Source: a virus. Taken from it: a stretch of 64,000 nucleotides of DNA. The position numbers and the translations under genes were made by a program. Of this stretch, positions 23,873 through 35,420 are shown piece by piece. Position 1 is the first letter of the stretch, and each line of letters begins with the position of its first letter. The DNA is taken from positions 1 to 64,000 of the IMG/VR virus record IMGVR_UViG_3300030419_005541. One strand, written 5' to 3'. The notes below the pieces were generated by a model that saw only the letters and a program-made list of their open reading frames with translations, searched no databases and was not told where the DNA came from.

Positions 23873-24706
23873 ATGGCACGAGCCGCAAAACACAAAGTAA
23901 AGACCATCACTCAGGTTAAATCTGAACAACCTTGTCAGAATAAACGCCAGGCCCTTTCACAGATAAGAAGAATCAAGTGGAACATAGATTTTCGAAGTGA
24001 AAATCAACATCACTTTTGGAAAACTATTGATACTAATGATATAACTTTTTGTGCAGGACCTGCGGGGTGTGGTAAAACGTTTATATCAGTATACTACGCA
24101 TTACAAATGTTAGCTCAAAAGAAATTTGAGTCTATCATTTTAACTAAGCCTTTAGTCGAGGCAGGAGGTGAAAAACTCGGCTTCTTACCCGGTGATGTCG
24201 ATGAAAAGACAGAACCATTTATGATGTCTTTCTATTATAATATGGAACAGATAATTGGTAAACAGAGATTAGATGTTCTAAGAAATTCAGGTGTAATCAA
24301 AGTTATACCTTTAGCTTATATGCGTGGATTGACATTAACAAACACTTGTGTAATTCTTGACGAAGCACAGAATACGTTACCAATTCAAATTAAGACCTTT
24401 TTAACACGTATCGGTCAAGGTAGTAAGTTTATTGTTAATGGTGATTTATTACAAACAGACATTCATCACGAAAATGGTTTAGAAGATTCGATAAAAAGAT
24501 TAGCAGGAGTTAGAGGACTCGGTATGAGTCGATTTACTTCTGAAGATATTGTAAGGCATCCTATTGTTGGAGATGTACTTGCAAGATACGCACCTGATTG
24601 GAAAGTATCACACGAATCAGCTGAAACAACTATGTCTAATTACATTGAGAACGGACAAGCATTTGCTCTTAAAGTACGTGAGAAAATAAACAAATATTAT
24701 AATTAG
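23873..24706 (+). CDS. phoH: PhoH-family ATPase
   Basis: GPAGCGKT, LGFLPGD..EK, PLAYMRG.T, LDEAQN, TRIG, GD..QTD, DIVRH. Confidence 0.95.
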   Translation: MARAAKHKVKTITQVKSEQPCQNKRQALSQIRRIKWNIDFRSENQHHFWKTIDTNDITFCAGPAGCGKTFISVYYALQMLAQKKFESIILTKPLVEAGGEKLGFLPGDVDEKTEPFMMSFYYNMEQIIGKQRLDVLRNSGVIKVIPLAYMRGLTLTNTCVILDEAQNTLPIQIKTFLTRIGQGSKFIVNGDLLQTDIHHENGLEDSIKRLAGVRGLGMSRFTSEDIVRHPIVGDVLARYAPDWKVSHESAETTMSNYIENGQAFALKVREKINKYYN

Positions 24707-24712
24707 ATATAT

Positions 24713-25078
24713 ATGGTAGAAGTAGCAGGTATATTAATTCATTACAAAGATGAAGTCCTTTTATTCAAACGTTCTAACAAAGTACGTTATAACGGAAATT
24801 GGAGTGTGGCAGGAGGTCATATTGAAATGAATGAATCCGCAGAAGGCGCGGCTAAGCGTGAAGTCTTTGAAGAAACATTGCTTATGATTTCAGGACCTAT
24901 AGAAGAAGTAGGTATCTATGATGACAGATATGCATTATTCTCAAAAGAACTTGATTCTAAAGTAGAACCTGTTATTGATGAAGAACACGATGATTGGGGA
25001 TGGTTTAACAAAAGTAATTTACCATCCCCAACCGCATCTTTCGTTAAAGAAGCTATAGGAGAAATTTATGCCGAGTAA
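24713..25078 (+). CDS. Nudix hydrolase
   Basis: Nudix box GGHIEMNESAEGAAKREVFEET; EHDDWGW. Confidence 0.9.
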   Translation: MVEVAGILIHYKDEVLLFKRSNKVRYNGNWSVAGGHIEMNESAEGAAKREVFEETLLMISGPIEEVGIYDDRYALFSKELDSKVEPVIDEEHDDWGWFNKSNLPSPTASFVKEAIGEIYAE

Positions 25079-25376
25079 GAGTGTAGATGAAAAAGTTATA
25101 GACCAAAAACATTATATAAATTCTAAATTAGTAGAGATTATGGAATACAGACAATCACGAAAGTGGTATGTTAGTATTGCTGTAGTAGGGTTGTTTTCTT
25201 TTATATTGGCATTGATGATTTTCTTTATGGCTCAAGGTAAAGATGTAACTGAGGGTTGGAAAGAAATACTATTGTTGATGTTAGGCGGATTTGTAGGTTC
25301 ATTTGCTAAAGTAATTGATTTTTGGTTTAACAATCAAGAGAACGATAATAAATTATTAGAACACGCTGACGATTAA
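25068..25376 (+). CDS. Two-TM membrane protein (holin-like)
   Basis: Two TMs, KEILLLMLGGFVGSFAKVIDFWF. Confidence 0.55.
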   Translation: MPSKSVDEKVIDQKHYINSKLVEIMEYRQSRKWYVSIAVVGLFSFILALMIFFMAQGKDVTEGWKEILLLMLGGFVGSFAKVIDFWFNNQENDNKLLEHADD

Positions 25377-25428
25377 TCTTTCTGATTATCTTTATATTTA
25401 TAATTGTATAACTAACTTGGAGATGACA

Positions 25429-25470
25429 ATGTGTGATTGTTGTGATTGCTGTAATTGTTGCTGTAAATAG
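25429..25470 (+). CDS. Cys-rich micropeptide MCDCCDCCNCCCK
   Basis: TATTTATA motif 25395, SD GGAG 25419-25422 six nt upstream, 8 Cys in 13 aa; its stop overlaps the SD of the next gene. Confidence 0.5.
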   Translation: MCDCCDCCNCCCK

Positions 25471-25479
25471 GAGAAACAG

Positions 25480-26778
25480 ATGTTAAAGAAAATATTATTA
25501 GGATTAATCCTAACTTCATCTTTGTTCGCAGAGAATGAGATATGGAAGTTTTTTAAATACTCAACTGCTTATGGTAGTTTTAGTTTAAATGCACCACGTC
25601 ACCAAGACGATAGATTTGCTATTGTTGGAGGATTATCCTCAGGTATTCTACAAGTAGAAAGAACAGAAAGAGAGTTAAAACCTGATTTTCAAACATCATT
25701 TGGTTTAAGAAAGATTGGTAGATTTCAATACGAACCAAAACGAGGTGTACGAAATGCAGGTAAAGGCGGTAAGTGGTATGATGGTTCTGAACAAAACGCT
25801 AACGAGAGTGCTACATTCGGTCCTGTAAAAGGTTGGGAATATTTAATTAAATTTTCAGAAGGTCGTCAATGGGGCAACGAATATGTAAATCAAGAATATT
25901 GGGTACGATATATTGGTGAATGGGCGATGGCTAAAGTTGGTATGACAGAATTAGGTCTTGAAGATATTAGTTACGTACACGGAGATTTAAGATTACATCT
26001 TACACCTGAAGTTTTAAATGAGAAATTACATTTCAGTATAGGTTTGAAACATAGACAACATCCTGTATACGGATTTGATGCTATGGTTCTTGATACTACT
26101 TGGTATAAAGGACAATGGTGGAACTTTGCTGAAGATGCTTTTGGTATTGATGACAATATGTGGTTTGATTCAACTATGGTTGACCCTGACTCACCGACAG
26201 GTTGGGATAGTAGAACACTTTATGAAGTAGACCCTGTAACAGGTGAACTTAGAGAGATAGAAGGTTCAGGTCCATTTTGGAATGAAGGTGGAGAGTATTG
26301 GGGTCACGATTGGTTATGGAGAGATGTTGATGGTAGAATATTTGCTTACACAGATAGAGAATACTTTATATATCACTTTCCAAGAATGTTAGAAAAATAT
26401 ATTAATGGTAAGAAAAATGATTTAGGATATCAAGGTGAAACATCAATCGTATTAGGAATAGATTGGTATCATTATGATGAGGCTTGGTGGTTACACGCTT
26501 GGGGTAATTGGTTACCATATCATTATGGTCATACTGATTATGCTTATCACAATGCCGCACATTATGCGACACATTTAGAAGAGGGTGGTGAACCATCTGA
26601 TTTTATGTTTATGGAACCAATGTGGCATAGTTGGAATGATTATGATTTTGGTGCTATCTTTGGTGTAAAGATTAAAGATAACTTAGGTGTCTTTACAGAA
26701 GGTAGATATTTAAACTATTGGGAAAGACCAGCTTATGATATTAAGTTTGGTATGAACTATCAATTTGTGGGGTGGTAA
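25480..26778 (+). CDS. Putative outer-membrane beta-barrel protein
   Basis: Signal peptide (LTSSLFA), aromatic-rich strands, C-terminal YDIKFGMNYQF beta-signal-like strand. Confidence 0.65.
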   Translation: MLKKILLGLILTSSLFAENEIWKFFKYSTAYGSFSLNAPRHQDDRFAIVGGLSSGILQVERTERELKPDFQTSFGLRKIGRFQYEPKRGVRNAGKGGKWYDGSEQNANESATFGPVKGWEYLIKFSEGRQWGNEYVNQEYWVRYIGEWAMAKVGMTELGLEDISYVHGDLRLHLTPEVLNEKLHFSIGLKHRQHPVYGFDAMVLDTTWYKGQWWNFAEDAFGIDDNMWFDSTMVDPDSPTGWDSRTLYEVDPVTGELREIEGSGPFWNEGGEYWGHDWLWRDVDGRIFAYTDREYFIYHFPRMLEKYINGKKNDLGYQGETSIVLGIDWYHYDEAWWLHAWGNWLPYHYGHTDYAYHNAAHYATHLEEGGEPSDFMFMEPMWHSWNDYDFGAIFGVKIKDNLGVFTEGRYLNYWERPAYDIKFGMNYQFVGW

Positions 26779-26779
26779 G

Positions 26780-26974
26780 ATGCCAGGATTAGAAGATATG
26801 ATAAACAAAAGTATGTTTAATAAAGGTGCCGGTAAGAAACAGAAAAAAGTTACTTTTGGTAAAGGTACTTTTAAAAACATAGAACAAGCTTATAATAAAG
26901 ATACATCATCTACTAATAAGCCAAATCAGATTTGGTGGGATGACGATGATGATGTTCAATTTGACGAAGATTAA
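26780..26974 (+). CDS. Hypothetical protein
   Basis: Short ORF, acidic C-terminus. Confidence 0.5.
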   Translation: MPGLEDMINKSMFNKGAGKKQKKVTFGKGTFKNIEQAYNKDTSSTNKPNQIWWDDDDDVQFDED

Positions 26975-27006
26975 ATTTTATTAATAGACAACGCAAGGAG
27001 CGAATA

Positions 27007-27201
27007 ATGAAATCAATACTAACAGGAATACTTTCACTTTTTATTTTCTTTGGTGCTGTTCCTACTGCTAATGCTTCAGATATGAATATGGCAGGAATGG
27101 AAGAAGTTAAGAAGAAGAAAAAGAAGAAAGGTAAAAAACTTTCTGAAAAAGGTAAAAAGAAGAAAAAGGGTTTCTTCTCAAAAGTCTTTGGAAGTAAGTA
27201 G
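27007..27201 (+). CDS. Secreted poly-Lys cationic peptide 1
   Basis: SD AAGGAG, signal peptide (ANA), AGMEEVKKKKKKK. Confidence 0.7.
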   Translation: MKSILTGILSLFIFFGAVPTANASDMNMAGMEEVKKKKKKKGKKLSEKGKKKKKGFFSKVFGSK

Positions 27202-27212
27202 AAAGGCAATAA

Positions 27213-27419
27213 ATGAAGAACATATTCAGATTATTACTCGCATCTTTTATTCTAATTGGTTCAGTTCCTACACTACAAGCAGATAGTTCTGCAGGTATGG
27301 AAGAAATCAAAAAGAAGAAAAAGAAAAATAAAAACAAGAAGTCCAAAGCCGGTAAAGGTAAAAAAGGCGGATGGGGTAAATGGAAGTCTAAATGGAAGAA
27401 GAGTAAGAAAAGTGAATAA
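27213..27419 (+). CDS. Secreted poly-Lys cationic peptide 2 (paralog)
   Basis: Signal peptide (LQA), AGMEEIKKKKKK. Confidence 0.7.
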   Translation: MKNIFRLLLASFILIGSVPTLQADSSAGMEEIKKKKKKNKNKKSKAGKGKKGGWGKWKSKWKKSKKSE

Positions 27420-27705
27420 TCCGATAGCAAAGTTTTATCAATGGCAAGTCGCATCAGGCGCCTTGGATGGATGGACATCTTACCATTTAGCCGCAGGTTT
27501 GTTTATAGCAAAAGTAGCGCAGTGGTTAGGTGCTTCTGATTTTTGGGCCGTGATGTGGGTTGCCATTATCGGAGTAGCTTGGGAAATATTTGAAGTGTAT
27601 GTTGAAGGCATGGAAGAAACTTATGGCACACGAAAGAAGTGGGCTTGGAACACAGGTACTGATATATTTGTTGAAGTAGCCGCAGCATGGTGGATGGTAT
27701 TATGA
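27412..27705 (+). CDS. Membrane protein (H...WE..E...D motif)
   Basis: Likely GTG start at 27412; WTSYHLAAG, VAWEIFE, NTGTD. Confidence 0.6.
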   Translation: MNNPIAKFYQWQVASGALDGWTSYHLAAGLFIAKVAQWLGASDFWAVMWVAIIGVAWEIFEVYVEGMEETYGTRKKWAWNTGTDIFVEVAAAWWMVL

Positions 27706-28139
27706 TACTACAAATTTTATTTTGTTTACTGATAATCTTATATTGGTTTAGTGAAGGTGTAACTGAAGGTTGGACTTGGTCTACTAAAAAGAGAAAAGAA
27801 ACCAATAAACTTATACATCCTAACAATCATAAGAACGGGATATTTGATTATCATATGTGGAGAATTTTAGAGAACGTTGGTATATGGGGTGCTGTAATTG
27901 TAGCATTTCTTATGGAAGGTTCTTTTGAAAAGTTCTTTTGGTTAGGTGTTGGTAGTTGGTTCATAGGAACATTTTGTTATGAAGCGGCGTTGAATCACGT
28001 AAACAAAGGAACGATTTATAAACCAATAGATTACAAATGGCACATCTTGGGATATGATATCCCTTGGTGGGGAGGAAAAAAGATATTCATTTTACCTGCT
28101 ACAGGATTAGCAGTATTGATTTATGGAGTTTTAATATGA
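27702..28139 (+). CDS. Multi-TM membrane protein
   Basis: ATGA overlap; four hydrophobic segments. Confidence 0.6.
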   Translation: MILQILFCLLIILYWFSEGVTEGWTWSTKKRKETNKLIHPNNHKNGIFDYHMWRILENVGIWGAVIVAFLMEGSFEKFFWLGVGSWFIGTFCYEAALNHVNKGTIYKPIDYKWHILGYDIPWWGGKKIFILPATGLAVLIYGVLI

Positions 28140-28741
28140 GACACGAAGAGATATATAATAATGTAAGAGTTGTATTAGGTTCATTTTTATTATTTGCAAT
28201 GTTTATGATGCCAAGTTGTGAAGACGATAGAGTAGAAGAACCATTAGAAGAAAACATTCAGATGTATGTTAATGGTTCAGAAATTGTACCTCGTGAATAT
28301 TATGAAAGTGTAACTACATATGGAGCATCATCAGTACAAGAAGATGGTTCTATAAAAAAGATATTTGTAATTCATTTTCAAAAAGAATTTGGTAGAGTAT
28401 CACCTGAGAAAGAACATTATGCTTTGATTATGTATGATAATAATGGTGCAGACAATGGTCAACTAATAGATGAAAAGATATATGTAGGTGGTACAGAAGC
28501 TGATTCATTACTATTAGAAAGTACAAGTGGAAGAGTAACATTAGAGATTGTAGGTTTATCTGATTACACAGAATTTGGACAAGGTTCAATTACAAAGTAT
28601 GAAGATGGTAAAGTGAATGGTATGGTAGATGGTTACTTTTATAATCCATATGCAGATATAATGCAACACGGTATAATTATTTTTGAGAACGTAGAGATAG
28701 GTACAGACCCTGAGGCTACTTTTTATCAAGGAGTATATTAG
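28136..28741 (+). CDS. Putative lipoprotein
   Basis: Hydrophobic stretch then MPSC-EDD (Cys followed by acidic residues, FCB-style). Confidence 0.6.
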   Translation: MRHEEIYNNVRVVLGSFLLFAMFMMPSCEDDRVEEPLEENIQMYVNGSEIVPREYYESVTTYGASSVQEDGSIKKIFVIHFQKEFGRVSPEKEHYALIMYDNNGADNGQLIDEKIYVGGTEADSLLLESTSGRVTLEIVGLSDYTEFGQGSITKYEDGKVNGMVDGYFYNPYADIMQHGIIIFENVEIGTDPEATFYQGVY

Positions 28742-29418
28742 TGAGTGATGGAGTTAAATTAGGACAACTCTTATGTGATGCTGATATAATTACAAAGAGA
28801 CAATTAAGTAAAGCCTTACAAGCACAAGTCAAAGGTAACAAAGGAACCATTGGTGAAATTCTCGTAGAGATGAACTTTTGTGACTTTGATGATATTACAG
28901 ATGCTTTATTAAATTCTCAAACAAATACTCAAAAACACGAAGAGAAACACGAAGAGATTCATAACGAACCAATTCAACCTGAAGTGGTTACAGGACTTCC
29001 ACCAAATAAACCTGAACCTGTAAAAGAAGAACCAAAGAAAGATGAACCAATAGAAGTATCCGAAGAAAAGATTATGGGTACTAAGTTCACAATGTCTTTA
29101 CAAACATTAGGAGCGTTAGTTGCTTTGTTAGCAAGTGGTATAGGTGGTTACTATATGTTACTACAAGAGATTGAAGAAGCAAAGAACTTACCTGAACCAC
29201 CATCGATTGAATCTATATTTGGTGATGAGTATCCATCTAAACCTGATGGTCATAATTGGCCACGTTCTTATGAACAATACAAAACACAGGTTGGTGGTCT
29301 ACAAAAAGATATGGATGAAGTCTATGATTACATAGATGAGTTTGAAGAAAAGATTGAAGATTTAGAAAAGTTAGTAGCTAATCTCAGAGTAGAAGTTGCA
29401 AAGAAGAAAGACAAGTAG
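28741..29418 (+). CDS. MshEN-like (c-di-GMP-binding) domain + TM + coiled-coil protein
   Basis: KLGQLLCDADIITKRQLSKALQAQ....TIGEILVEMNFC....ITDAL matches the tandem RLGxxLxxxGxIxxxxLxxALxxQ pattern; no ATPase domain. Confidence 0.75.
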   Translation: MSDGVKLGQLLCDADIITKRQLSKALQAQVKGNKGTIGEILVEMNFCDFDDITDALLNSQTNTQKHEEKHEEIHNEPIQPEVVTGLPPNKPEPVKEEPKKDEPIEVSEEKIMGTKFTMSLQTLGALVALLASGIGGYYMLLQEIEEAKNLPEPPSIESIFGDEYPSKPDGHNWPRSYEQYKTQVGGLQKDMDEVYDYIDEFEEKIEDLEKLVANLRVEVAKKKDK

Positions 29419-29428
29419 GAGTCGTAAT

Positions 29429-29803
29429 ATGAAGAAGATACTAAGTTTATTATTATTTCTATCTGTAGGTTTTGGTCAGATAACAGATAAGAATTTTAAA
29501 TCAGAAATTAATGGTGGTGTTACACTTGCTGTATTTGAATCAGAATGGCAAGAACAACCATTTGATAAAGATATAATTAGTGGTGTAAAAGGATATGAAG
29601 ATTGTGAAATCATTTATGTCAAGAGTGAAGAGGCACCAAGAGCAACAAAAAAATTAAGATTAAGGAATTTTCCTTCTATGGTTTTGTTTTATGATGGTTC
29701 TAAAAAAGAAACTTGGAAAGCAGATATGGATGGTGAATTAGATTGTGATAGTAAAGAAATCAAAAACGCCATAAGTGATATAATTAGTGGCGATGTATTT
29801 TAG
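29429..29803 (+). CDS. Exported thioredoxin-fold protein lacking CxxC
   Basis: Signal peptide, ITDKNFKSEI, F.SEW, LRNFPSMVLFYDG cis-Pro loop. Confidence 0.7.
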   Translation: MKKILSLLLFLSVGFGQITDKNFKSEINGGVTLAVFESEWQEQPFDKDIISGVKGYEDCEIIYVKSEEAPRATKKLRLRNFPSMVLFYDGSKKETWKADMDGELDCDSKEIKNAISDIISGDVF

Positions 29804-29812
29804 GAGGATATT

Positions 29813-29992
29813 ATGAGTAGTAAAGATTTATATAATGATTTAAAAGAACTTTGGGAAGAGTTCGAATCTAACCACGATGCGTTTGCAGATAAAGGTAACA
29901 AAGCCGCAGCAGGTCGTGCGAGAAAAGCGATTGGCGAAATTAAAAAACTTGTTACTGAATATAGGAAAGCATCTGTATCTGAATGTAAATAA
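29813..29992 (+). CDS. Hc1/histone H1-like small protein (59 aa, not in track)
   Basis: SD AGGAGG; KGNKAAAGRARKAIGEIKKLVTEYRK signature. Confidence 0.8.
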   Translation: MSSKDLYNDLKELWEEFESNHDAFADKGNKAAAGRARKAIGEIKKLVTEYRKASVSECK

Positions 29993-30643
29993 ATGAACAT
30001 CGCAACGTTAGCAGGGCACTTAGCATTTGGACTAATTGCCTTTTCTTTTTTAGTCAAAGATATATTTTGGCTAAGAATCGTTTCTATACTCGCAAGTTTA
30101 TTTTCAGTATTTTATAATTACTTCATACCTGCTGACCCGATGTGGTTAGCTATTAATTGGAACTTTGTATTCATTGTTGTAAACGTATATCATATAGGTG
30201 TTATCTTATATGAGAAACGACAAGTTAAAATGGATGCTAAAAATGAAGAGTTATATTCTACTTTGTTTAAAGAAATGACTCCTGTTGAATATCTAAAGAT
30301 TAGTCGAGCCGCAGAATGGAAAACTTTTAAAGCAGGTGAAACTATTATAACACAAGAACATCTTGTAAAAGATTTAGTACTCATATATAACGGAACCGTT
30401 GATGTTGCAGTTGATGGTCAACGAATAGCTGAACTTAGAGATGGTGAGTTTGTAGGTGAGATGTCTTTTCTAACAGAAAAATCAGCAACAGCAACTTGTA
30501 TAGTTAAACACGATGCCGAGTGTTTAGTATGGAAACAAAGAGAGTTTAAAGACTTATTAAAACGTAATCCATCATTATACTTTACTATACAATCTGTATT
30601 ATCAGCACAAGTATCTGATAAACTCGTAAAATCACATAAGTAA
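29993..30643 (+). CDS. Popeye-like membrane protein with cyclic-nucleotide-binding domain
   Basis: Three TMs (DIFWLRIVSI, WNFVF..VN), then GETIITQ, LIYNG.V.V, G.FVGEMSFL...ATAT CNB fold. Confidence 0.85.
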   Translation: MNIATLAGHLAFGLIAFSFLVKDIFWLRIVSILASLFSVFYNYFIPADPMWLAINWNFVFIVVNVYHIGVILYEKRQVKMDAKNEELYSTLFKEMTPVEYLKISRAAEWKTFKAGETIITQEHLVKDLVLIYNGTVDVAVDGQRIAELRDGEFVGEMSFLTEKSATATCIVKHDAECLVWKQREFKDLLKRNPSLYFTIQSVLSAQVSDKLVKSHK

Positions 30644-30651
30644 ACAAAAGA

Positions 30652-30790
30652 TAACAAATTGTTACAGGTGTAATATTTTGTTATTATTAAACGTTTACTT
30701 TATGTGTGTCTCTATATTCACATATAAAACAACTTAAATTTTTTTTTATTTTTTTTCTAAAAATCGAGCGGTTTAGTACACTTTTTGTAT
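30652..30790 (+). promoter_or_regulatory. Sigma54-like promoter region of the pilin operon
   Basis: Palindrome TAACAAATTGTTA 30652-30664 plus imperfect copy 30669-30684, IHF-like AAAACAACTTA ~30726-30736, TTAGTACACTTTTTGTAT 30773-30790. Confidence 0.45.
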
Positions 30791-30854
30791 TATATAGTGT
30801 AGAAAGACGAAATCACAAGGATTAAAGTCTATAAACAAACATAGGAGAACTGAA

Positions 30855-31523
30855 ATGTTCGAAACAATAAAAAATCTTATAAAATCATTTATGAGAACAA
30901 TCAAAAGTACAAAAGGTAATTCACTTGCTGAATTTGCAGTTACTACAGCTATGATGGCTACCTTAGCAACAACAGCCGCACCCAAGTTTGGTCAAGTCGG
31001 TGCAGGAGCTAAAGAAAAGAAGACAATGAATAACATTGATAAAATTCTAACCGTTGCAAATAATTTTTATAACCAAACACTATCTGAAGAAGGAAAAGGA
31101 AGATTTCCAGGACAAGAAAAGTATGATGTTGAAGTAGGTGGAGTTACACTTTCTGAAGGTCAACTTACAGATGAAGCATTAGAAATATATGTTGAAACTA
31201 TTCTTGATGCTAAAGATTCATATACATCAGATTTAGGTGAGTTTGTATATGTATTTTCACCATCTGTAGATGATGATGATGCTATTGATGGTGATTGGAT
31301 GAGTCTTGAAACATCAGTATCATTTGATGGTAACTCTGAAGTCGGTGCTCTTGACTTTAAAAGAGACTTTGGTAATAATGGTATGACAAGTCCTTTTCAG
31401 GATGGTTCATACGCATACTTAGTAATACCTGGTAGTGGTTCAGGTACATCTGCACAAGCACCTGTTATGGTCGTGATTGATACAGAGAACCCTTCAAAAC
31501 TTCATAAGACTTTAGTACCTTAA
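30855..31523 (+). CDS. Type IV pilin-like protein 1 (atypical G|NSLAEF N-terminus)
   Basis: Basic leader, KG|NSLAEFAVTTAMMATLATTAAPKF with E5 and P22. Confidence 0.75.
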   Translation: MFETIKNLIKSFMRTIKSTKGNSLAEFAVTTAMMATLATTAAPKFGQVGAGAKEKKTMNNIDKILTVANNFYNQTLSEEGKGRFPGQEKYDVEVGGVTLSEGQLTDEALEIYVETILDAKDSYTSDLGEFVYVFSPSVDDDDAIDGDWMSLETSVSFDGNSEVGALDFKRDFGNNGMTSPFQDGSYAYLVIPGSGSGTSAQAPVMVVIDTENPSKLHKTLVP

Positions 31524-31558
31524 TCGATAACAGAACGTAAGTTCGGAAAGAGAAACAA

Positions 31559-32008
31559 ATGAAGAAACTAAAAAACAAAAACGGATTCACTTTGATAGAG
31601 TTAATTATGGTAATGATTATCTTAGGGATTTTAGGAGCAGTAGCTATTCCACGATATATGGAAACTATTGACAATGCTGAAATCGCCGCAGAAGATGCAG
31701 TTATTACTAATGTCGAAGCCGCACTCGAAAACTATGCAATACATAAACTGATTGCTGATGGTCGTAGAATTTGGCCCGATAATCCTTTTGACGCATTAAA
31801 GCAGAAACCTCAAACATACACACAGGATGGTACAAACGCTGACTCAGACCAAGAGTGGACTTTTGTAGATGGTAATCCTGCATACATTACCCATCAACGT
31901 TCAGATAATTCACGTTGGAAGTGGGAGTATGATGCAGGTATCAATACAGGCACAGATGCCGATACTACAGGATTCCTTGGTTCGAGAGAAAGTTTGACCA
32001 ATGAGTAA
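31559..32008 (+). CDS. Type IV pilin/pseudopilin 2
   Basis: G|FTLIELIMVMIILGILGAVAIPRY class III signal. Confidence 0.95.
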   Translation: MKKLKNKNGFTLIELIMVMIILGILGAVAIPRYMETIDNAEIAAEDAVITNVEAALENYAIHKLIADGRRIWPDNPFDALKQKPQTYTQDGTNADSDQEWTFVDGNPAYITHQRSDNSRWKWEYDAGINTGTDADTTGFLGSRESLTNE

Positions 32009-32468
32009 CAGGAAGGGATTCACGTTGATAGAGTTAATTATGGTAATGGTAATAATTGGCATATTAGCGGCGGTATCAATTCCTAGGTTCGCAACTATTG
32101 TAAGACAATCCGAAGCCGCATCAGAACAAGGTGTTCTCATCAGTATGGTAGCGGCTTTGGATACTTACTCTCACGAAAGATTTGTTGAAGATGGTGTATT
32201 ACAATGGCCAACAAATCCTTTCGATGCTTTAAATAAAGTTCCACCCTCTTATGATAAGACTAATACTACTTTGATGAGAGAGATGACCGATAGTGATTGG
32301 ATATATACCGGCGATGGTGATGAATATCCTAAACATATTGTTCATAGAAGAAAGGAAGATAGTTTAGCTATTTGGCCTTATAATCCTTTAACAGGTGAAA
32401 TCGGATACGATGACCCACCTTATCAACCTTCAGGTATGTTATACAGACCTAATTTGGAGATACAATAA
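32001..32468 (+). CDS. Type IV pilin/pseudopilin 3
   Basis: G|FTLIELIMVMVIIGILAAVSIPRF. Confidence 0.95.
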   Translation: MSNRKGFTLIELIMVMVIIGILAAVSIPRFATIVRQSEAASEQGVLISMVAALDTYSHERFVEDGVLQWPTNPFDALNKVPPSYDKTNTTLMREMTDSDWIYTGDGDEYPKHIVHRRKEDSLAIWPYNPLTGEIGYDDPPYQPSGMLYRPNLEIQ

Positions 32469-32923
32469 TGTTTAAAACTTTTAAGAAAGTTATAAATGAT
32501 AAAATGAACGAAGGGTTTACCTTAGTTGAATTAGTAATGGTTATGATTATACTTGGTATTTTAGCCGCAGTCGCCGCACCAAAGATGACTAACGTTTTAA
32601 ACCAAGCAACGGTTAGAGCCGAAAAGACCACGGTAGATATGATATGGTCAGGTTGTGAATCTTATGCGGGTGATAAACTCATTGAGACAGGCACAGAATC
32701 CTGGCCATACAATCCATTAACAACATTTGGTAGAACAAGAAACTTAAAAATTAATTTAGAACTTGGTGTACCTGATGAAGATAATGAGTGGCAATTTAGT
32801 TTAATAGATGCAGGAGAACCTGCTATATTTCATCACAGACCTGATGATGAGATTTACTATTATACTTATGATTCTACTAACTTTGAGTTAGCAGAAGAAC
32901 CTGTTAGATACATCGCAAACTAA
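32468..32923 (+). CDS. Type IV pilin/pseudopilin 4
   Basis: G|FTLVELVMVMIILGILAAVAAPKM. Confidence 0.95.
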   Translation: MFKTFKKVINDKMNEGFTLVELVMVMIILGILAAVAAPKMTNVLNQATVRAEKTTVDMIWSGCESYAGDKLIETGTESWPYNPLTTFGRTRNLKINLELGVPDEDNEWQFSLIDAGEPAIFHHRPDDEIYYYTYDSTNFELAEEPVRYIAN

Positions 32924-32934
32924 TAGTTATTAAT

Positions 32935-33378
32935 ATGAATATATCAGAACACGATAAAAACGTATTTAAAGAAATAGGTTTAATGTTTGGTATCGTAGTC
33001 TTATTGGGTTATGTAATTCTCGGACCTGATAAAGATGCTTTGCCAAATATTCAAACACCTTCAATGGAAGACTTTTATGAACATCCAATAGTAGCTTGGT
33101 CAGCATACGATAATAAAGGCGGTGCTTGTATAAAAGTTAGATATTCTGTACAGAGAAATAAAACAAAATTATATATGTTTGATTCAGAAGGAACTATCGT
33201 TCATCAGACTCCTTTATCTTTGAGTCCTTTCAAAGATGGTAGAGAAAGAACTGAAACTTATGTATGGAAGTTATATAGAACAGAATGGTCAGATTTTATA
33301 GAACCGGGTGTGTATACAATCATAGTCGGTACTGAATATGACAAACGTGGTATAGGTACTGAAATAGAAGTATTATGA
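32935..33378 (+). CDS. Membrane-anchored FlgD/Ig-like beta protein
   Basis: TM, then KLYMFDSEG.IV ... YVW ... PGVYTI. Confidence 0.55.
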   Translation: MNISEHDKNVFKEIGLMFGIVVLLGYVILGPDKDALPNIQTPSMEDFYEHPIVAWSAYDNKGGACIKVRYSVQRNKTKLYMFDSEGTIVHQTPLSLSPFKDGRERTETYVWKLYRTEWSDFIEPGVYTIIVGTEYDKRGIGTEIEVL

Positions 33379-34001
33379 AGTATCTAACACTTATCCTATT
33401 ATTAAGTGTTACGTATTCTCAAGTTGATGAACAAGTTTTCATAGACCAAGATATCCAAAGAACATCAGAATTTAAAAGAGATGTTGCCTACGGACAAGAT
33501 TGTGATGATACAGAATATAGAGATTACAAAGGTTCACCTGCTTGGAAAGGTTATGGTGGTTGGTTATCTGAATGTGATTCAATTCGTTCAGTAAACTTAG
33601 ATAGAGAGTTTGCTGAAAAAGCAAAAATACGAGCAAGAGAAAAAGCAATCCAAGATAGTATTGATTTAGCATCTGTAGAAGATATAGATTTTGATTTAGA
33701 TGCTATGTGGGATAATACGGTTTGGGTTGAGATTCAAGATATAGAAGAAGAAATTGTATACGAAACAGAACAGGTAACTGCAGTTGCGGGAGTTCGCGGG
33801 GCGGAAGCAGAAGATGAAGCATTGGCCTTGTTATATTACAGAAGAAGTATGAAGGGTTTGGCTTTAATTGATTTACAAAAGGCCTACGGTAAATTACGAA
33901 ATACAAGAGATGGCCTTATGAAAGTTGACCCTAATCATCCTAAACTCGAAAAGATAAATAATCTCATATATCAATTAGAAATAAAAATGAAAAAAGTTTA
34001 A
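33375..34001 (+). CDS. Exported hypothetical protein
   Basis: Signal peptide; TAVAGVRG motif. Confidence 0.65.
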   Translation: MKYLTLILLLSVTYSQVDEQVFIDQDIQRTSEFKRDVAYGQDCDDTEYRDYKGSPAWKGYGGWLSECDSIRSVNLDREFAEKAKIRAREKAIQDSIDLASVEDIDFDLDAMWDNTVWVEIQDIEEEIVYETEQVTAVAGVRGAEAEDEALALLYYRRSMKGLALIDLQKAYGKLRNTRDGLMKVDPNHPKLEKINNLIYQLEIKMKKV

Positions 34002-34009
34002 AAAACCGG

Positions 34010-34039
34010 TTGACACATATATGTATTTATGTATATATT
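34010..34039 (+). promoter_or_regulatory. Early promoter TTGACA-N18-TATATT
   Basis: Motif family member; no ORF before the next promoter. Confidence 0.8.
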
Positions 34040-34044
34040 TAAGT

Positions 34045-34190
34045 GTTATTTGATAAGAAAAGAATTTGATGGCTCTATTGCCGAAAGAGGAGTAGGAATA
34101 GAGTGCTGTGAGAAGCTTAAAATGTCAGACACAGGTCAACTCGGAGTAAAAAAGAATCGGCCGATAACTTTTTGAAACAGACCATCATCT
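34045..34190 (+). ncRNA. Candidate small structured RNA
   Basis: Closed by TGATGG/CCATCA (34067-34072/34182-34187); inner helices CTCTATT/AATAGAG, CTGTG/CACAG, TCGG/CCGA. Confidence 0.45.
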
Positions 34191-34210
34191 AAAATTTTTA
34201 AAAAAACCGG

Positions 34211-34240
34211 TTGACACGTATTGGTTTTTATTACTATATT
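34211..34240 (+). promoter_or_regulatory. Early promoter TTGACA-N18-TATATT
   Basis: Motif family member. Confidence 0.85.
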
Positions 34241-34277
34241 TAGATGTAAGTTAAAGAGAAAAGAAAAGGAGTTCTAA

Positions 34278-34631
34278 ATGGCTTATATGAATCAAGAGAA
34301 AAAAAAGAAATTGGCTCCCAAGATTAAAGATATCTTGAAGAGACACAATATGAAAGGCACACTTAGTGTCGATAATTACTCATCATTAAGATTGACTCTT
34401 CAATCAGGGTCGATTGATTTTGGTACTGACTCAATCAATGAGTATTGGTACAAAGACCACTTTGCTGATAATCCTAAAGCACTTAACTTTCTTAGTGAAG
34501 TTATTCCTGCGATGAATGTTGGAAATCACGATAATTCAGACCCAATGACAGATTACTTTGATGTCGGTTGGTATATCTCTGTTAATCTCGGAAGATGGGA
34601 TAAGCCTTACGTTTACAACGGAGGTAAGTAA
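34278..34631 (+). CDS. Conserved phage early hypothetical protein
   Basis: DNSDPMTDYFDVGWY..NLGRWDKPY; strong SD. Confidence 0.75.
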   Translation: MAYMNQEKKKKLAPKIKDILKRHNMKGTLSVDNYSSLRLTLQSGSIDFGTDSINEYWYKDHFADNPKALNFLSEVIPAMNVGNHDNSDPMTDYFDVGWYISVNLGRWDKPYVYNGGK

Positions 34632-34632
34632 T

Positions 34633-34902
34633 ATGTGGAAAGAAATGAAATCATTTAGGTTTCTTCTTAGAAACAAACTCAATGGAAAGACCTTTAGTTA
34701 CACAGACCATTTAAATATTGCAGATAAGACTAAAGAATGGTACATCACTTGGGTAATGCAAAAACATTTTCTTAGTGACAACTTAGAAGTGGTTAGGATA
34801 TCTAAAGATGTTAGTGGACTTGGTCGTAGATTTGAAATGGTTTATTCTGAGTCAAAAGGTTGGCTTGAAGGTGACTTAACACAGGTTAATCCTTATGCTT
34901 AG
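34633..34902 (+). CDS. Hypothetical protein
   Basis: SD GGAGG before ATG 34633. Confidence 0.6.
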   Translation: MWKEMKSFRFLLRNKLNGKTFSYTDHLNIADKTKEWYITWVMQKHFLSDNLEVVRISKDVSGLGRRFEMVYSESKGWLEGDLTQVNPYA

Positions 34903-35131
34903 AATTACTGAAATTAAAGATGAGAACATTTACTTTAATAATGGTAAGTACATTTGGATACTTTACTATCAAGGTTTATCTGCTCTCGGTAAAGGTCCAA
35001 ACTTGTGTACTGAAGATTGTATCAAAGTAGGTAAGGCTATGGGTGAGATTGGTTATGGTGATGCAGACATTGATGAATACAGAGAAGAGTTGAGATTTGA
35101 AAATCCGGAGGCGATGTATGGCGATGTCTAA
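34895..35131 (+). CDS. Hypothetical protein
   Basis: Overlapping ORF. Confidence 0.55.
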   Translation: MLRITEIKDENIYFNNGKYIWILYYQGLSALGKGPNLCTEDCIKVGKAMGEIGYGDADIDEYREELRFENPEAMYGDV

Positions 35132-35363
35132 TCAAGCCTTAATAGATTTAGTTATTGAGAAGTTTGATGGAAGTATTGTAGAAGATAACAAATGGAGGGT
35201 TGATGGTTCTAAAGGTAATCACTATTGGGTAGAGTGGCATCCATTTCATAAACATTATAGTTGTGGATGTAAAGGTTATGCTTTCAGAAAAAAATGTAGA
35301 CACATTACAGAGGTTAGTAATCAATTTAAAAATAATTTAAAAAACCGGTTGACCTGTGTATGA
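35118..35363 (+). CDS. SWIM zinc-finger protein
   Basis: V.GSKGN.Y.V...YSCGCKGY.FRKKCRHI. Confidence 0.8.
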   Translation: MAMSNQALIDLVIEKFDGSIVEDNKWRVDGSKGNHYWVEWHPFHKHYSCGCKGYAFRKKCRHITEVSNQFKNNLKNRLTCV

Positions 35364-35378
35364 TTTTGTCCTTATATT
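35349..35378 (+). promoter_or_regulatory. Early promoter TTGACC-N18-TATATT
   Basis: Motif family member. Confidence 0.75.
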
Positions 35379-35420
35379 CTAATATGAGTTTTGAGTTAAA
35401 TATAAAGAATAGGAGTTTTA

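What the first reader, a model, noticed from the sequence alone, without database searches (positions are those of the whole stretch)
25480..34001. Phage-encoded pilus/envelope module: four pilins, MshEN and cNMP sensors, beta-barrel and lipoprotein
Seen: about 9 kb of co-oriented genes, most of them exported or membrane-bound. They encode a beta-barrel, two poly-Lys peptides, membrane proteins, a lipoprotein, an MshEN-TM-coiled-coil protein, a redox-inactive thioredoxin, Hc1, a Popeye-type CNB protein, four class III signal pilins, an Ig-like anchor and an exported protein. No PilB/PilT ATPase, PilC platform, secretin or prepilin peptidase is in the window. Established: MshEN binds c-di-GMP in pilus/T2SS ATPases, CNB domains bind cAMP/cGMP, and pili are common phage receptors. 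Inference: the phage supplies its own pilin set and second-messenger sensors to hijack the host T4P/T2SS machine. This could swap or jam the receptor (superinfection exclusion) or change adhesion, DNA uptake or aggregation of the infected cell. I know of no described lytic-phage system with this make-up; it is the best candidate for a new system here.
Basis: partly seen in the sequence, partly recalled or inferred. Interest (0 to 1): 0.9.

Follow-up and report, generated by a model that had tools for sequence, protein, structure and literature searches.

The report
Phage pilin cassette beside envelope module
An uncultured ocean phage carries pilus-subunit genes copied from its likely host (SAR406 bacteria) next to a separate, virus-only set of cell-envelope genes that probably helps burst the cell, so this is two modules of partly known kinds rather than one new pilus-control system.

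Summary
The genes are real, lie on a phage and are kept by selection (dN/dS 0.03-0.27). The block is not one system, though.

(1) 25423-29803 is a virus-only envelope set. It holds a 12-stranded outer-membrane barrel, exported poly-Lys peptides, a lipoprotein, an inner-membrane coiled-coil protein with an MshEN head, and a Cys-less periplasmic thioredoxin. The trio of barrel, coiled-coil protein and thioredoxin recurs in distant phages (76 of 81 loci). There the middle protein has no MshEN head, and endolysin or holin genes follow in 44 of 81 loci. The most likely role is a late lysis or outer-membrane module.

(2) 30855-34001 is an accessory pilin cassette, present in 15 of 28 evaluable relatives. 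It was copied from the MSHA-like pilus locus of Marinimicrobia (SAR406): a relative's pilin is 81% identical to that of a single-cell genome. The host genomes examined (5 of 5) supply PilD, MshE and secretin; PilC was shown in the one host locus scanned.

Phage pilins that enter host pili are already known (P-FimU, SNJ2). This scan had already found the same modules on other phage DNA. All functions here are inferred.

The parts
25068..25376 (+). Small protein with two membrane helices, just outside the finding. It or a similar family lies next to the barrel gene in several relatives. Holin-like in shape only.
   Evidence: Two hydrophobic segments; phrog_9990, function unknown, E 5e-6; cluster found in 7 loci, and the related c32 family lies before BB.
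25395..25402 (+). TATTTATA motif, shared with the structural genes. Read here as a late-type promoter (inference).
   Evidence: 19 copies on the + strand of the genome; 12 are intergenic and just upstream of genes, including large structural genes. An exact copy lies upstream of BB in 17 of 43 relatives, against a background of 0.07 per 290 nt.
25423..25470 (+). Cys-rich micro-ORF of 15 codons, 9 of them Cys.
   Evidence: Read. Peptides of at most 26 aa (those found: 14-24 aa) with at least 6 Cys were found in 22 loci of L002-L062 plus L187. In the relatives checked against a BB position they lie directly before or after the barrel gene.
25480..26778 (+). Exported outer-membrane beta-barrel (BB), 12-stranded class, with large inserts.
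   Evidence: No Pfam, NCBIfam or PHROG family. AlphaFold model pLDDT 74.6, pTM 0.71. All Foldseek matches listed are outer-membrane barrels. VIA: Tsx Z 13.7, KdgM 13.3, NanC 12.7. 57 viral loci at 72-93% identity. dN/dS 0.07-0.11.
27007..27201 (+). Exported poly-Lys peptide 1.
   Evidence: Hydrophobic leader; K+R 18 of 64 residues. Cluster in 12 loci. dN/dS 0.14-0.19. A contig from an RNA library covers 27057-27394.
27213..27419 (+). Exported poly-Lys peptide 2.
   Evidence: Hydrophobic leader; K+R 22 of 68 residues. tblastn hits in L006, L016, L030 and L034.
27412..27705 (+). Small membrane protein, probably starting at GTG 27412 (97 aa).
   Evidence: Relatives are 96-97 aa. A GTG is in frame right at the stop of the preceding gene. 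Cluster in 16 loci.
27687..28139 (+). Membrane protein, 150 aa.
   Evidence: Hydrophobic segments at both ends. Cluster in 6 loci. dN/dS 0.04-0.09.
28136..28741 (+). Lipoprotein of 201 aa; Cys28 follows the leader and acidic residues follow the Cys.
   Evidence: Cys invariant in 18 of 18 aligned relatives. Its ATG overlaps the stop of the gene before it. Cluster in 36 loci.
28741..29418 (+). Inner-membrane protein. It has a cytoplasmic MshEN head (residues ~6-56), a Pro/Glu/Lys linker, a membrane helix (~117-141) and a periplasmic conserved segment with a coiled coil.
   Evidence: NF053729, 41.6 bits against a cut-off of 38. PDB profile hits to PilF, PilB and MshE. Alignment A3. Residues 113-210 align to the 94-aa spanin-like protein of distant phages.
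29429..29803 (+). Exported thioredoxin-fold protein without CxxC.
   Evidence: Profile hits TXNDC5 at 1.2e-10 and thioredoxins. W-Q-E stands in place of W-C-G in the family. It directly follows the MshEN gene in 34 of 35 loci.
29813..29992 (+). Hc1 histone-H1-like protein (accessory).
   Evidence: Pfam Hc1 3e-18. Cluster in 4 loci. The family is found in 11 of 201 genomes of the host phylum.
29993..30643 (+). Membrane protein with a Popeye-type cyclic-nucleotide-binding domain (accessory).
   Evidence: cNMP_binding 2e-16, POPDC1-3 2e-14. Cluster in 14 loci. Full-length relatives at 27-29% identity in 2 of 201 host-phylum genomes.
30774..30789 (+). Degenerate remnant of the host pilin sigma-54 promoter; both GG and GC are lost here.
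   Evidence: 3 mismatches to the consensus. That is not above chance on its own: 28% of random windows have a best match of exactly 3 mismatches, about a third 3 or fewer. 10 of 17 phage pilin loci (the window among them) keep a 2-mismatch version at the same place, and 57 of 61 host copies have at most 2 mismatches.
30855..31523 (+). A-type (major-like) type IV pilin with Gly at -1, Asn at +1 and Glu at +5.
   Evidence: Alignment A1. PDB profile hits geopilin and MshA. Full-length homologues at 37-48% identity in 45 cellular loci. A 964-nt contig from an RNA library covers 30890-31853.
31559..32008 (+). GFTLIE-type pilin (pil149).
   Evidence: N_methyl 4e-8. 64% identical to a paralogue on a 583-kb bacterial contig. 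Sister to a cellular clade, support 99.
32001..32468 (+). GFTLIE-type pilin (pil155).
   Evidence: N_methyl 5e-9. Sister to cellular sequences in L084 and L086, support 100.
32468..32923 (+). GFTLIE-type pilin (pil151); its clade holds phage sequences only.
   Evidence: N_methyl 1.5e-7. Clade of 13 phage rows, support 100. dN/dS 0.03-0.12.
32935..33378 (+). Membrane-anchored protein that travels with the pilins. Its fold was not tested.
   Evidence: Membrane helix at residues 10-28. Cluster in 8 loci, always after the pilins. No family hit.
33375..34001 (+). Exported protein that travels with the pilins.
   Evidence: Cluster in 13 loci. dN/dS 0.16-0.27. No family hit.

Best explanation
The block is two modules placed side by side on a large uncultured marine myovirus whose host is most likely Marinimicrobia (SAR406).

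Module 1 (25395-29803, with the add-ons Hc1 and the CNB protein up to 30643) is virus-only. It stands behind a motif shared with the structural genes, so it is probably late. It sends proteins to every layer of the envelope:
- a 12-stranded outer-membrane barrel;
- two exported polycationic peptides;
- an outer-membrane lipoprotein;
- an inner-membrane protein with a periplasmic coiled coil;
- a redox-dead periplasmic thioredoxin-fold protein.

Its ancient core is the trio of barrel, coiled-coil protein and thioredoxin. This core most likely acts at the end of infection to breach or loosen the outer membrane, doing the job of a spanin. In this phage clade the coiled-coil protein has gained a cytoplasmic MshEN head. 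The head would let the host's c-di-GMP level feed into that step, or would soak up c-di-GMP.

Module 2 (30774-34001) is an accessory cassette captured from the host's MSHA-like type IV pilus locus. It holds one major-like pilin, three GFTLIE pilins, and two phage-specific exported or anchored partners. The host prepilin peptidase, MshE ATPase, PilC and secretin would process these pilins and build them into the infected cell's pili. The most likely effect is to re-surface the pilus so that pilus-binding phages (rivals, or the phage's own progress of progeny) no longer adsorb, as shown for P-FimU.

Shown here: gene content, folds and domains, conservation, host origin of the pilins, presence of the host machinery, and lysis-gene neighbours in distant relatives.
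Inferred: every function, c-di-GMP binding, the timing of expression, and pilus incorporation.
For: Separate modules:
- BB, the lipoprotein, the MshEN protein and the thioredoxin cluster in 46, 36, 36 and 35 loci; pilins are in 20 loci (window included).
- 13 of 28 evaluable relatives have the core but no pilins. 34 of 35 MshEN genes are followed directly by the thioredoxin gene.
- L059-L061 have the pilin cassette with no core in the flank held upstream of it, about 9 kb in L060 and L061.
- The whole block sits after phoH here and in 4 relatives, but after the tail or baseplate genes in most others.

Core is ancient and linked to lysis:
- BB homologues at 26-29% identity lie on 81 further viral loci. 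The trio is present in 76 of 81.
- An endolysin-like gene (PG_binding_1 + Amidase_2, or phrog_3000/33083) follows in 40, a holin (Phage_holin_4_1, 22.5 bits against a cut-off of 22.2) in 31, and either one in 44 of 81.
- The 94-aa middle protein there is a membrane helix plus a periplasmic coiled coil. It aligns to residues 113-210 of the window protein, and 0 of 80 carry an MshEN motif.

Core is virus-only:
- BB gave 0 of 201 and the MshEN protein 5 weak hits of 201 in host-phylum genomes.
- The nearest Atlas clusters are viral.

Late-type motif.

Pilins come from the host:
- 45 cellular loci were found; 19 are titled Marinimicrobia, 22 carry no label and 4 carry other labels.
- Of the 26 window proteins tried (23873-35956), only the pilins hit cellular loci, leaving aside L063, a 2.7-kb contig read as phage.
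- Phage and cell rows interleave in the trees, with at least 2 and at least 4 forced changes.
- One phage pilin is 81% identical to that of a single-cell genome.
- The host locus reads PilD, MshE (with MshEN), sigma-54 activator, PilC, then pilins.
- 5 of 5 host genomes have the ATPase, peptidase and secretin. 4 of 5 have a single GGDEF.
- A sigma-54 promoter lies upstream of 57 of 61 host copies and, in weakened form, of 10 of 17 phage copies, window included. Random windows reach this in 10% and 5%.

Genes are in use:
- dN/dS is 0.03-0.27 for every gene.
- Contigs from RNA libraries of 2 studies lie on the pilins, the poly-Lys genes, BB and the last gene. DNA carry-over is not excluded.

Precedent: P-FimU replaces host FimU in the pilus and blocks tip-binding phages (PMC12952977, summary and section 17 read).
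Against: - No endolysin or holin was found next to the block, or anywhere in this 72%-complete record, with the queries tried. These were Amidase_2, Phage_lysozyme and tblastn with the distant lineage's lysis proteins. The lysis link therefore rests on distant relatives only.
- 37 of 81 distant loci show no lysis gene within six genes after BB. 16 of the 81 are too short to tell.
- No outer-membrane barrel or thioredoxin is known to take part in any described lysis system. A 115-residue cytoplasmic head is not a spanin feature.
- The MshEN motifs deviate from the consensus. The two motif-leading Arg are Lys and Thr, the turn Gly is Asp or Asn, and the spacer is 6 residues instead of 5. These were compared with the relaxed motif in PMC5013675 (passages read). 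Binding of c-di-GMP is therefore uncertain.
- The window's copy of the sigma-54 promoter has lost both invariant dinucleotides and is not above chance. How its pilins are transcribed is unknown.
- Nothing here shows that the phage itself, or any rival, uses the pilus as a receptor. Keeping the pilus working (the AMG logic) fits the pilin data equally well.
- Host assignment rests on gene similarity, mostly to MAGs. 4 of 45 loci carry other taxon labels.
Confidence: 0.55

Rival explanations
1. The whole 9 kb is one pilus-hijack system in which the MshEN and CNB proteins sense c-di-GMP and cAMP to control or jam the host pilus motor, and the barrel and lipoprotein belong to the same apparatus as the phage pilins.
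For: - The genes are adjacent and co-oriented.
- Where core and pilins share a contig, the pilins lie downstream of the core, directly after the thioredoxin or CNB gene in most such loci.
- The host's pilus ATPase carries an MshEN domain, and 4 of 5 host genomes have a single GGDEF. A phage MshEN protein would therefore tap the same small circuit.
- The MshEN head is found in the clade that also carries Marinimicrobia pilins, and in 0 of 80 members of the distant lineage.
Against: - 13 of 28 evaluable relatives keep the MshEN-headed protein but have no pilins (alignment A3 includes such loci).
- The pilin cassette stands alone in L059-L061.
- The barrel, coiled-coil protein and thioredoxin trio predates both the MshEN head and the pilins, and neighbours lysis genes.
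- CNB is in 14 loci and Hc1 in 4 of the loci clustered.
Confidence: 0.15
2. The pilins are auxiliary genes of the psbA type. The phage resupplies the consumable subunits so that the host pilus keeps working during infection, for adhesion to particles or cells or for DNA uptake. They do not change the receptor.
For: - Only subunits are carried, never the stable machine.
- The phage copies are close to host copies (81% in one pair) and under purifying selection, as expected for parts that can still be assembled.
- The host promoter was captured together with them.
- SNJ2's pilins become the dominant filaments and promote biofilm and motility (PMC12426801, abstract read).
Against: - Differences between phage and host copies lie mostly in the central part, which is variable across the family (pair alignment). 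That fits a change of surface.
- The pil151 clade and the two partner genes have no cellular counterpart in the loci searched.
- Half of the relatives do without the cassette.
Confidence: 0.2
3. The envelope core is not a lysis device. It is a superinfection-exclusion or envelope-remodelling set, or a nutrient channel: the barrel acts as a Tsx-like pore, and the lipoprotein masks a receptor as T5 Llp does (Llp is recalled, not looked up).
For: - The best structural matches are channels (Tsx, KdgM, NanC).
- No lysis enzyme lies beside the block in this genome.
- Phage lipoproteins that block receptors are known (recalled).
Against: - A shared fold shows no function.
- The trio sits directly before endolysin and holin genes in many distant relatives.
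- The middle protein has the build of an i-spanin.
Confidence: 0.1
4. The block is an artefact: a chimeric assembly, or host DNA mis-joined to a phage contig.
For: The pilins resemble bacterial genes.
Against: - GC content and skew are uniform across the window.
- The same junctions appear on independent contigs. phoH to BB is in L006, L032, L044 and L048. Thioredoxin or CNB to pilins is in 15 loci.
- 14 DNA runs from 5 studies hold at least half of the sampled words of the stretch.
- The phage pilins form their own clades.
Confidence: 0.01

Closest known systems
P-FimU and the PilA-like proteins of phages and prophages (Cell Rep 2026, PMC12952977; summary and section 17 read)
   Same: - A phage-encoded copy of a host type IV pilus subunit, with no assembly machinery on the phage.
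- P-FimU is built into the host pilus and blocks phages that bind it.
- The paper also notes PilA-like genes in virulent phages.
   Different: - Here there is a set of four pilins (one major-like, three others) plus two partner genes, on a large marine myovirus with no integrase found.
- The source is Marinimicrobia.
- A remnant of the host sigma-54 promoter is present.
- Incorporation and protection are untested.
PilA1 and PilA2 of the archaeal provirus SNJ2 (Cell Rep 2025, PMC12426801; abstract read)
   Same: Virus-encoded type IV pilins that hijack the host secretion machinery and form filaments on the host surface.
   Different: - SNJ2 is a temperate archaeal pleolipovirus with archaeal pilins.
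- Its pili serve as the receptor for a second virus.
Two-component spanins (lambda Rz/Rz1) and the phiKT gp28 cationic peptide 'disruptin' (bioRxiv 10.1101/515445; listing and start of abstract seen; spanin details recalled)
   Same: - An inner-membrane protein with a periplasmic coiled coil, plus an outer-membrane lipoprotein gene.
- Placed beside endolysin and holin genes in distant relatives.
- Small polycationic peptides in the same block.
   Different: - An obligatory outer-membrane barrel and a dead thioredoxin accompany them.
- The lipoprotein is large (173 aa when mature) and is not always present.
- The peptides have export leaders.
- The inner-membrane protein carries a 115-aa cytoplasmic MshEN head in this clade.
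- No lysis assay has been done.
MshEN domain of V. cholerae MshE (Nat Commun 2016, PMC5013675; passages read)
   Same: Two tandem ~24-residue motifs at an N-terminus. The match is above NCBIfam's cut-off, and the profile hits MshE, PilB and PilF chains.
   Different: - It is fused to a membrane anchor and a periplasmic coiled coil, not to an ATPase or a glycosyltransferase.
- The motif-leading Arg residues are replaced, and the spacer is one residue longer.
- Ligand binding is untested.

Membership tests
Type IV pilins (class III signal peptide) | Short basic leader ending in Gly(-1), Glu at +5, and a hydrophobic helix of about 20 residues. | tested here: met
   All four genes meet it. +1 is Phe in three and Asn in the A-type; the host A-type copies also have Asn or Gln there.
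Type IV pilins (class III signal peptide) | A match to a curated N-terminal methylation model. | tested here: met
   Pfam N_methyl and TIGR02532 are above their cut-offs for 31559, 32001 and 32468. The A-type (30855) is matched only by a profile against PDB pilins, at E about 3e-3.
Type IV pilins (class III signal peptide) | Cleavage by a prepilin peptidase and assembly into a filament. | not testable with these tools
   The peptidase, ATPase and secretin are present in 5 of 5 candidate host genomes, and PilC in the one host locus scanned. None is in the phage record.
GspG-type T2SS major pseudopilin | Reaches the score of the equivalog model TIGR01710. | tested here: not met
   39-47 bits against a cut-off of 88.85, and the match covers the N-terminal part only.
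MshEN c-di-GMP receptor domain | A domain-model match above the cut-off. | tested here: met
   NF053729, 41.6 bits against 38. The single sequence gave no listed match to Pfam MshEN (PF05157).
MshEN c-di-GMP receptor domain | Two 24-residue motifs that fit the relaxed pattern of Wang et al., separated by a 5-residue spacer. | tested here: inconclusive
   Checked by eye against the pattern quoted. There are two deviations in motif 1 and three in motif 2, and the spacer is 6 residues. Most relatives restore the turn Gly of motif 2.
MshEN c-di-GMP receptor domain | Binds c-di-GMP. | not testable with these tools
   This needs ITC or DRaCALA on residues 1-60.
Two-component spanin | i-spanin: an N-terminal membrane helix followed by a periplasmic coiled coil. 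| tested here: met
   This holds for the 94-aa homologue in distant phages and for residues 113-225 here. The window protein has an extra cytoplasmic head that no spanin has.
Two-component spanin | o-spanin: a small outer-membrane lipoprotein encoded within or next to the i-spanin gene. | tested here: inconclusive
   The adjacent lipoprotein has an invariant Cys. But its mature form is 173 aa, it is detected in only 11 of 81 distant loci, and its position varies.
Two-component spanin | Lies in a lysis cassette with holin and endolysin. | tested here: inconclusive
   Met in 44 of 81 distant loci. Not met in this genome with the queries tried.
Thioredoxin | Thioredoxin fold. | tested here: met
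   The profile hits TXNDC5 at 1.2e-10 and many thioredoxins. The distant homologue passes Pfam Thioredoxin, 24.8 bits against 23.5.
Thioredoxin | CxxC active site. | tested here: not met
   W-Q-E-x stands at that position in the family of 18. It has the fold only and is not a redox enzyme.
12-stranded outer-membrane barrels (Tsx, KdgM/NanC, autotransporter beta-domains) | Signal peptide, C-terminal aromatic strand, and a barrel fold. | tested here: met
   Leader and terminal ...F-x-G-W/F in the alignment. Model matches at Z 13.7-11 and Foldseek 9e-7.
12-stranded outer-membrane barrels (Tsx, KdgM/NanC, autotransporter beta-domains) | Sequence membership in one of these families. | tested here: not met
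   No Pfam, NCBIfam or PDB sequence match. It shares the fold class only.
POPDC-type cyclic-nucleotide-binding membrane proteins | N-terminal membrane helices plus a CNB domain, with both models above their cut-offs. | tested here: met
   POPDC1-3 54.2 bits against 28.1; cNMP_binding 60.1 against 27.5. The hydrophobic region spans residues 3-72. Ligand not tested.
P-FimU-type defence by pilus-subunit replacement | A phage-encoded homologue of a host pilus subunit, with no machinery on the phage. | tested here: met
P-FimU-type defence by pilus-subunit replacement | Incorporated into the pilus, and protects against pilus-binding phages. | not testable with these tools
   There is no culture of the host or the phage.

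The most novel reading that the evidence does not exclude
The trio of barrel, coiled-coil protein and dead thioredoxin is a so-far undescribed machine for breaking the outer membrane. It would be used by a very large group of uncultured ocean myoviruses in place of classical spanins. In the SAR406-infecting branch it has been put under second-messenger control: the MshEN head reads (or drains) the host's single-cyclase c-di-GMP signal. That signal also drives the MSHA-like pilus, which the phage re-surfaces with its own pilins. Lysis timing and surface change would thus be coupled to whether the infected cell is attached or free.
Probability: 0.2. Interest if true: 0.85.

Novelty: new variant of a known kind. 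Interest (0 to 1): 0.6.

Why it matters
- It gives a concrete, testable host assignment (SAR406/Marinimicrobia, which has no cultured phage-host pair) for a phage group that is abundant in ocean metagenomes. One pilin alone has 1321 relatives at E <= 1e-3.
- It extends pilus-subunit replacement, known from Pseudomonas prophages and one haloarchaeal virus, to a four-pilin set on a large marine phage.
- It points to a conserved trio of envelope proteins that may be the missing outer-membrane step of lysis in many marine phages.
- It describes the first MshEN-type c-di-GMP receptor module I could find on a phage protein. The searches turned up none among the papers listed. The supplementary files of the papers read were not opened, so those tables were not seen.

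Tried and rejected
- Structure of the barrel from close relatives only (25 sequences, 72-93% identical) gave pLDDT 38.9 and was discarded. A deeper alignment was then used.
- Complex prediction was run on the periplasmic part of the MshEN protein together with the thioredoxin and the lipoprotein. It gave 'no answer' (score 0.01, controls not run). This says nothing either way.
- The cultured-phage collection has no tblastn match to the barrel, to a distant barrel homologue or to pil149. The nearest cultured phages, judged by the baseplate wedge, are Microcystis phage Mel-JY01 (44.7%) and the Flavobacterium 'immuto' phages (38.5%).
- The lipoprotein profile found no credible PDB relative.
- The phage MshEN head is not specially close to the host MshE head (33% over 46 residues).
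- In the RNA libraries X15 and X16, no contig lay on 28012-30516 or 33022-33522, and none on 22000-23500. Contigs cannot rank genes, and a gap proves nothing.
- Endolysin and holin were not found in this record with Amidase_2, Phage_lysozyme or the distant lineage's proteins.
- The 69-aa ORF at 26765-26974 has no relative in the loci (cluster size 1) and is left out as unconfirmed.

Full report
CONTEXT. The window is the first 64 kb of a 126,522-base IMG/VR virus record (linear, CheckV 72% complete). Nearly all long ORFs are on the + strand. GC is even at 0.30-0.39 and GC skew is positive throughout. Phage markers include a gp6-type baseplate wedge at 52578-54554, and CobS/CobT-like and PhoH genes. 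The nearest cultured phages, judged by the wedge protein, are Microcystis phage Mel-JY01 (44.7%) and the Flavobacterium 'immuto' phages (38.5%). No integrase was found.

OBSERVATION.
- Three pilins pass Pfam N_methyl.
- The fourth pilin (30855) has Gly(-1) and Glu(+5). As a 12-sequence profile it hits geopilin and V. cholerae MshA.
- The protein at 28741 passes NCBIfam's MshE-related c-di-GMP motif (41.6 bits against 38). As a profile it hits PilF, PilB and MshE chains.
- Hc1 and the Popeye-type CNB protein are clear Pfam matches.
- The thioredoxin call needed a profile (TXNDC5 1.2e-10). The CxxC site is absent in 18 of 18 relatives.
- The lipoprotein has an invariant Cys after its leader in 18 of 18 relatives.
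- The barrel has no sequence family. A first model was useless (pLDDT 38.9).
- A profile search of 1.84 billion representatives then found 275 relatives. A 35-sequence alignment built with the distant ones gave a model with pLDDT 74.6 and pTM 0.71.
- All the matches Foldseek listed for that model are outer-membrane barrels. Its best VIA matches are 12-stranded ones: Tsx Z 13.7, KdgM 13.3, EstA 12.8, NanC 12.7.
- PilB, PilC, PilD and secretin families are absent from the whole record.

NOT CHIMERIC, AND UNDER SELECTION.
- The barrel gene brought in 57 viral loci at 72-93% identity (60 stretches matched, 58 confirmed).
- A tblastn table and an all-against-all clustering show the same gene order on many independent contigs.
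- Pairwise Nei-Gojobori dN/dS against close orthologues is 0.03-0.27 for every gene in the block.
- One relative (L061) has a pilin split into two ORFs.
- 14 DNA runs from 5 studies hold at least half of the sampled words.

TWO MODULES.
- The barrel clusters in 46 loci, the lipoprotein in 36, the MshEN protein in 36 and the thioredoxin in 35. CNB is in 14 loci, Hc1 in 4 and pilins in 20 (window included).
- The thioredoxin gene directly follows the MshEN gene in 34 of 35 relatives.
- 15 relatives have pilins after it. 13 have at least four further ORFs and no pilin.
- Three loci found through a pilin (L059-L061) show the pilin cassette with no core in the flank held upstream of it, about 9 kb in L060 and L061.
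- In most relatives the block sits between tail or baseplate-type genes and a primase/SbcCD region. Here and in four relatives it follows phoH, while the tail-type genes of this genome lie at 55990-64607. The block has therefore moved as a unit.

THE PILINS COME FROM MARINIMICROBIA.
- A scan of one genome per species with the A-type alignment gave 45 loci (111 stretches matched, 46 confirmed) with full-length homologues at 37-48% identity.
- 19 of the 45 are titled Marinimicrobia or Neomarinimicrobiota, among them four single-cell genomes. 22 carry no label, and 4 carry other labels.
- Of the 26 window proteins tried (23873-35956), only the pilins hit these loci. L063 is the exception: a 2.7-kb contig that repeats the phage order at 69-77% identity, and I read it as a mis-binned phage contig.
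- Host loci carry 2-5 tandem A-type copies followed by a pil149-type gene. Two long contigs (583 kb and 220 kb) carry about fifteen and about ten GFTLIE-type paralogues.
- In the A-type tree (73 rows) the window falls in a clade of 10 phage rows. A second phage group interleaves with cellular rows, and at least 2 label changes are forced.
- In the GFTLIE tree (119 rows) pil149 and pil155 are each sister to cellular clades (support 99 and 100). pil151 lies in a clade of phage rows only, and at least 4 changes are forced.
- One phage A-type pilin is 81% identical (168 of 208) to that of single-cell genome AM-382-M06. The window's pil149 is 64% identical to a host paralogue.

HOST MACHINERY.
- That single-cell locus reads: response regulator, PilD, a 554-aa ATPase with an MshEN domain, sigma-54 activator, PilC, pilins, an AAA_22 protein and PilO. 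This is an MSHA-like pilus.
- Five of five host genomes have the ATPase, peptidase and secretin families above their cut-offs.
- Four of five have exactly one GGDEF protein.

PROMOTER. This followed a lead from earlier notes of this scan.
- A sigma-54 consensus with at most 2 mismatches lies 75-126 nt upstream of 57 of 61 host A-type genes. 10% of random windows in those loci reach this.
- A weakened version lies upstream in 10 of 17 phage loci, the window among the 17, against 5% of random windows.
- In the window itself the site (30774-30789) has lost both invariant dinucleotides and is no better than chance.

THE CORE IS OLD, VIRUS-ONLY AND SITS WITH LYSIS GENES ELSEWHERE.
- The barrel gave 0 of 201 matches in genomes of the host phylum. 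The MshEN protein gave 5 weak matches of 201, four of them to the MshEN part of its sequence, three in ATPase-sized ORFs.
- The nearest Atlas clusters of both proteins are viral.
- A barrel homologue at 27% identity has 221 relatives in IMG/VR (80 loci kept), on contigs up to 168 kb.
- In 81 such loci, tblastn finds the barrel in 81, the MshEN protein in 38, the lipoprotein in 11, the thioredoxin in 8 and pilins in 0. In the loci listed the MshEN match lies directly downstream of the barrel.
- Clustering shows the trio in 76 of 81 loci.
- The middle gene encodes a 94-aa protein with a membrane helix and a periplasmic coiled coil. It aligns to residues 113-210 of the window protein at 30-33% identity and never carries an MshEN motif (0 of 80).
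- The third gene passes Pfam Thioredoxin.
- Within six genes after the barrel there is an endolysin-like gene in 40 loci, a holin in 31, and either one in 44 of 81. 65 of the 81 have at least five ORFs after the barrel.
- The same TATTTATA motif that precedes the large structural genes stands 85 nt before the barrel gene here. An exact copy lies before it in 17 of 43 relatives, against a background of 0.07 per 290 nt. That this is a late promoter is my inference from T4's TATAAATA, which I recall rather than looked up.
- No endolysin or holin was found in this record with the queries tried.

EXPRESSION.
- Contigs from two metatranscriptome studies (X15 and X16 are one sample; X17 is another study) lie on several genes at 0-16 mismatches. 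They cover the poly-Lys genes (27057-27394), the A-type pilin and pil149 (30890-31853 and 31561-32106), the barrel and the last gene.
- The tool warns that DNA can be present in RNA libraries and that contigs cannot rank genes. This result is therefore compatible with transcription but does not prove it.

COMPARISON WITH WHAT IS KNOWN.
- Pilus-subunit replacement by phages has been shown in the laboratory for P-FimU. The same paper lists PilA-like genes in Xylella prophages and in four groups of virulent phages (PMC12952977, summary and section 17 read).
- Archaeal provirus SNJ2 encodes two pilins that hijack host machinery (PMC12426801, abstract read). An Asgard virus pilin is reported in PMC13700489 (passages read).
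- The pilin part is thus a new variant of a known kind.
- I found no paper on a phage-encoded MshEN protein, or on the trio, among the listings. Supplementary files were not opened.
- The MshEN motifs deviate from the relaxed pattern of Wang et al. (PMC5013675, passages read). c-di-GMP binding is therefore plausible but open.

EARLIER NOTES OF THIS SCAN. The same pilin cassette and the same envelope trio have been described on other phage genomes, with similar readings. I re-tested the three leads they gave: the sigma-54 promoter, the lysis neighbours and the P-FimU paper. Each held, with the limits stated above.

VERDICT. All functions remain inferred.

Noticed in passing
window 25423-25470: A Cys-rich micro-ORF (MTMCDCCDCCNCCCK). 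Peptides of at most 26 aa (those found: 14-24 aa) with at least 6 Cys lie directly before or after the barrel gene in the relatives checked against a BB position; 22 related loci have one, and L187 has one further from its barrel. It could be a metal-binding peptide, a translated leader, or a by-product of a TGT/TGC-rich DNA element; which one is undecided.
   Followed up: partly
L084:9956-20116 and L086:9956-17626 (bacterial contigs of 583 kb and 220 kb): The host pilus loci hold about fifteen (L084) and about ten (L086) tandem GFTLIE-type pilin paralogues and several A-type copies. Most A-type copies have their own sigma-54 promoter. The arrays look like a variation system, possibly driven by pilus-binding phages.
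   Followed up: partly
L063, L069, L081, L100, L105: L063, a 2.7-kb contig in an unnamed MAG, repeats the phage pilin cassette at 69-77% identity and is probably a mis-binned phage contig. Marinimicrobia-type pilin loci also appear in MAGs labelled Methanobacteriota, Balneolaceae, Gammaproteobacteria and Crocinitomicaceae. These are likely binning or labelling errors.
   Followed up: no
window 34010-34039 and 34211-34240: Two strong sigma-70-like sites (TTGACA, 18 nt, TATATT; 11 of 12 matches) stand right after the block, ahead of a run of small ORFs that are unique to this genome. They mark the right-hand border of the block.
   Followed up: no
window 25068-25376; L019:2067-2369: A small protein with two membrane helices and a charged tail (phrog_9990, function unknown). 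This family, or a similar one, sits next to the barrel gene in several relatives. It is holin-like in shape only.
   Followed up: partly
genome 55990-72478 compared with the relatives: In most relatives the envelope block lies between the tail-type genes (homologues at 55990-64607 here) and the RusA, primase and SbcCD genes (68154-72478 here). In this genome about 3 kb of other sequence fills that slot, and the block lies 30 kb upstream.
   Followed up: partly
L061:9553-10008: One relative has its pil149 gene split into two ORFs of 54 and 86 aa. This is the only sign of decay seen in the cassette.
   Followed up: no
L120-L199: A second, very large group of marine viral contigs (up to 168 kb) carries the trio directly after a ribonucleotide reductase gene and before endolysin and holin genes. 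It has no pilins.
   Followed up: partly
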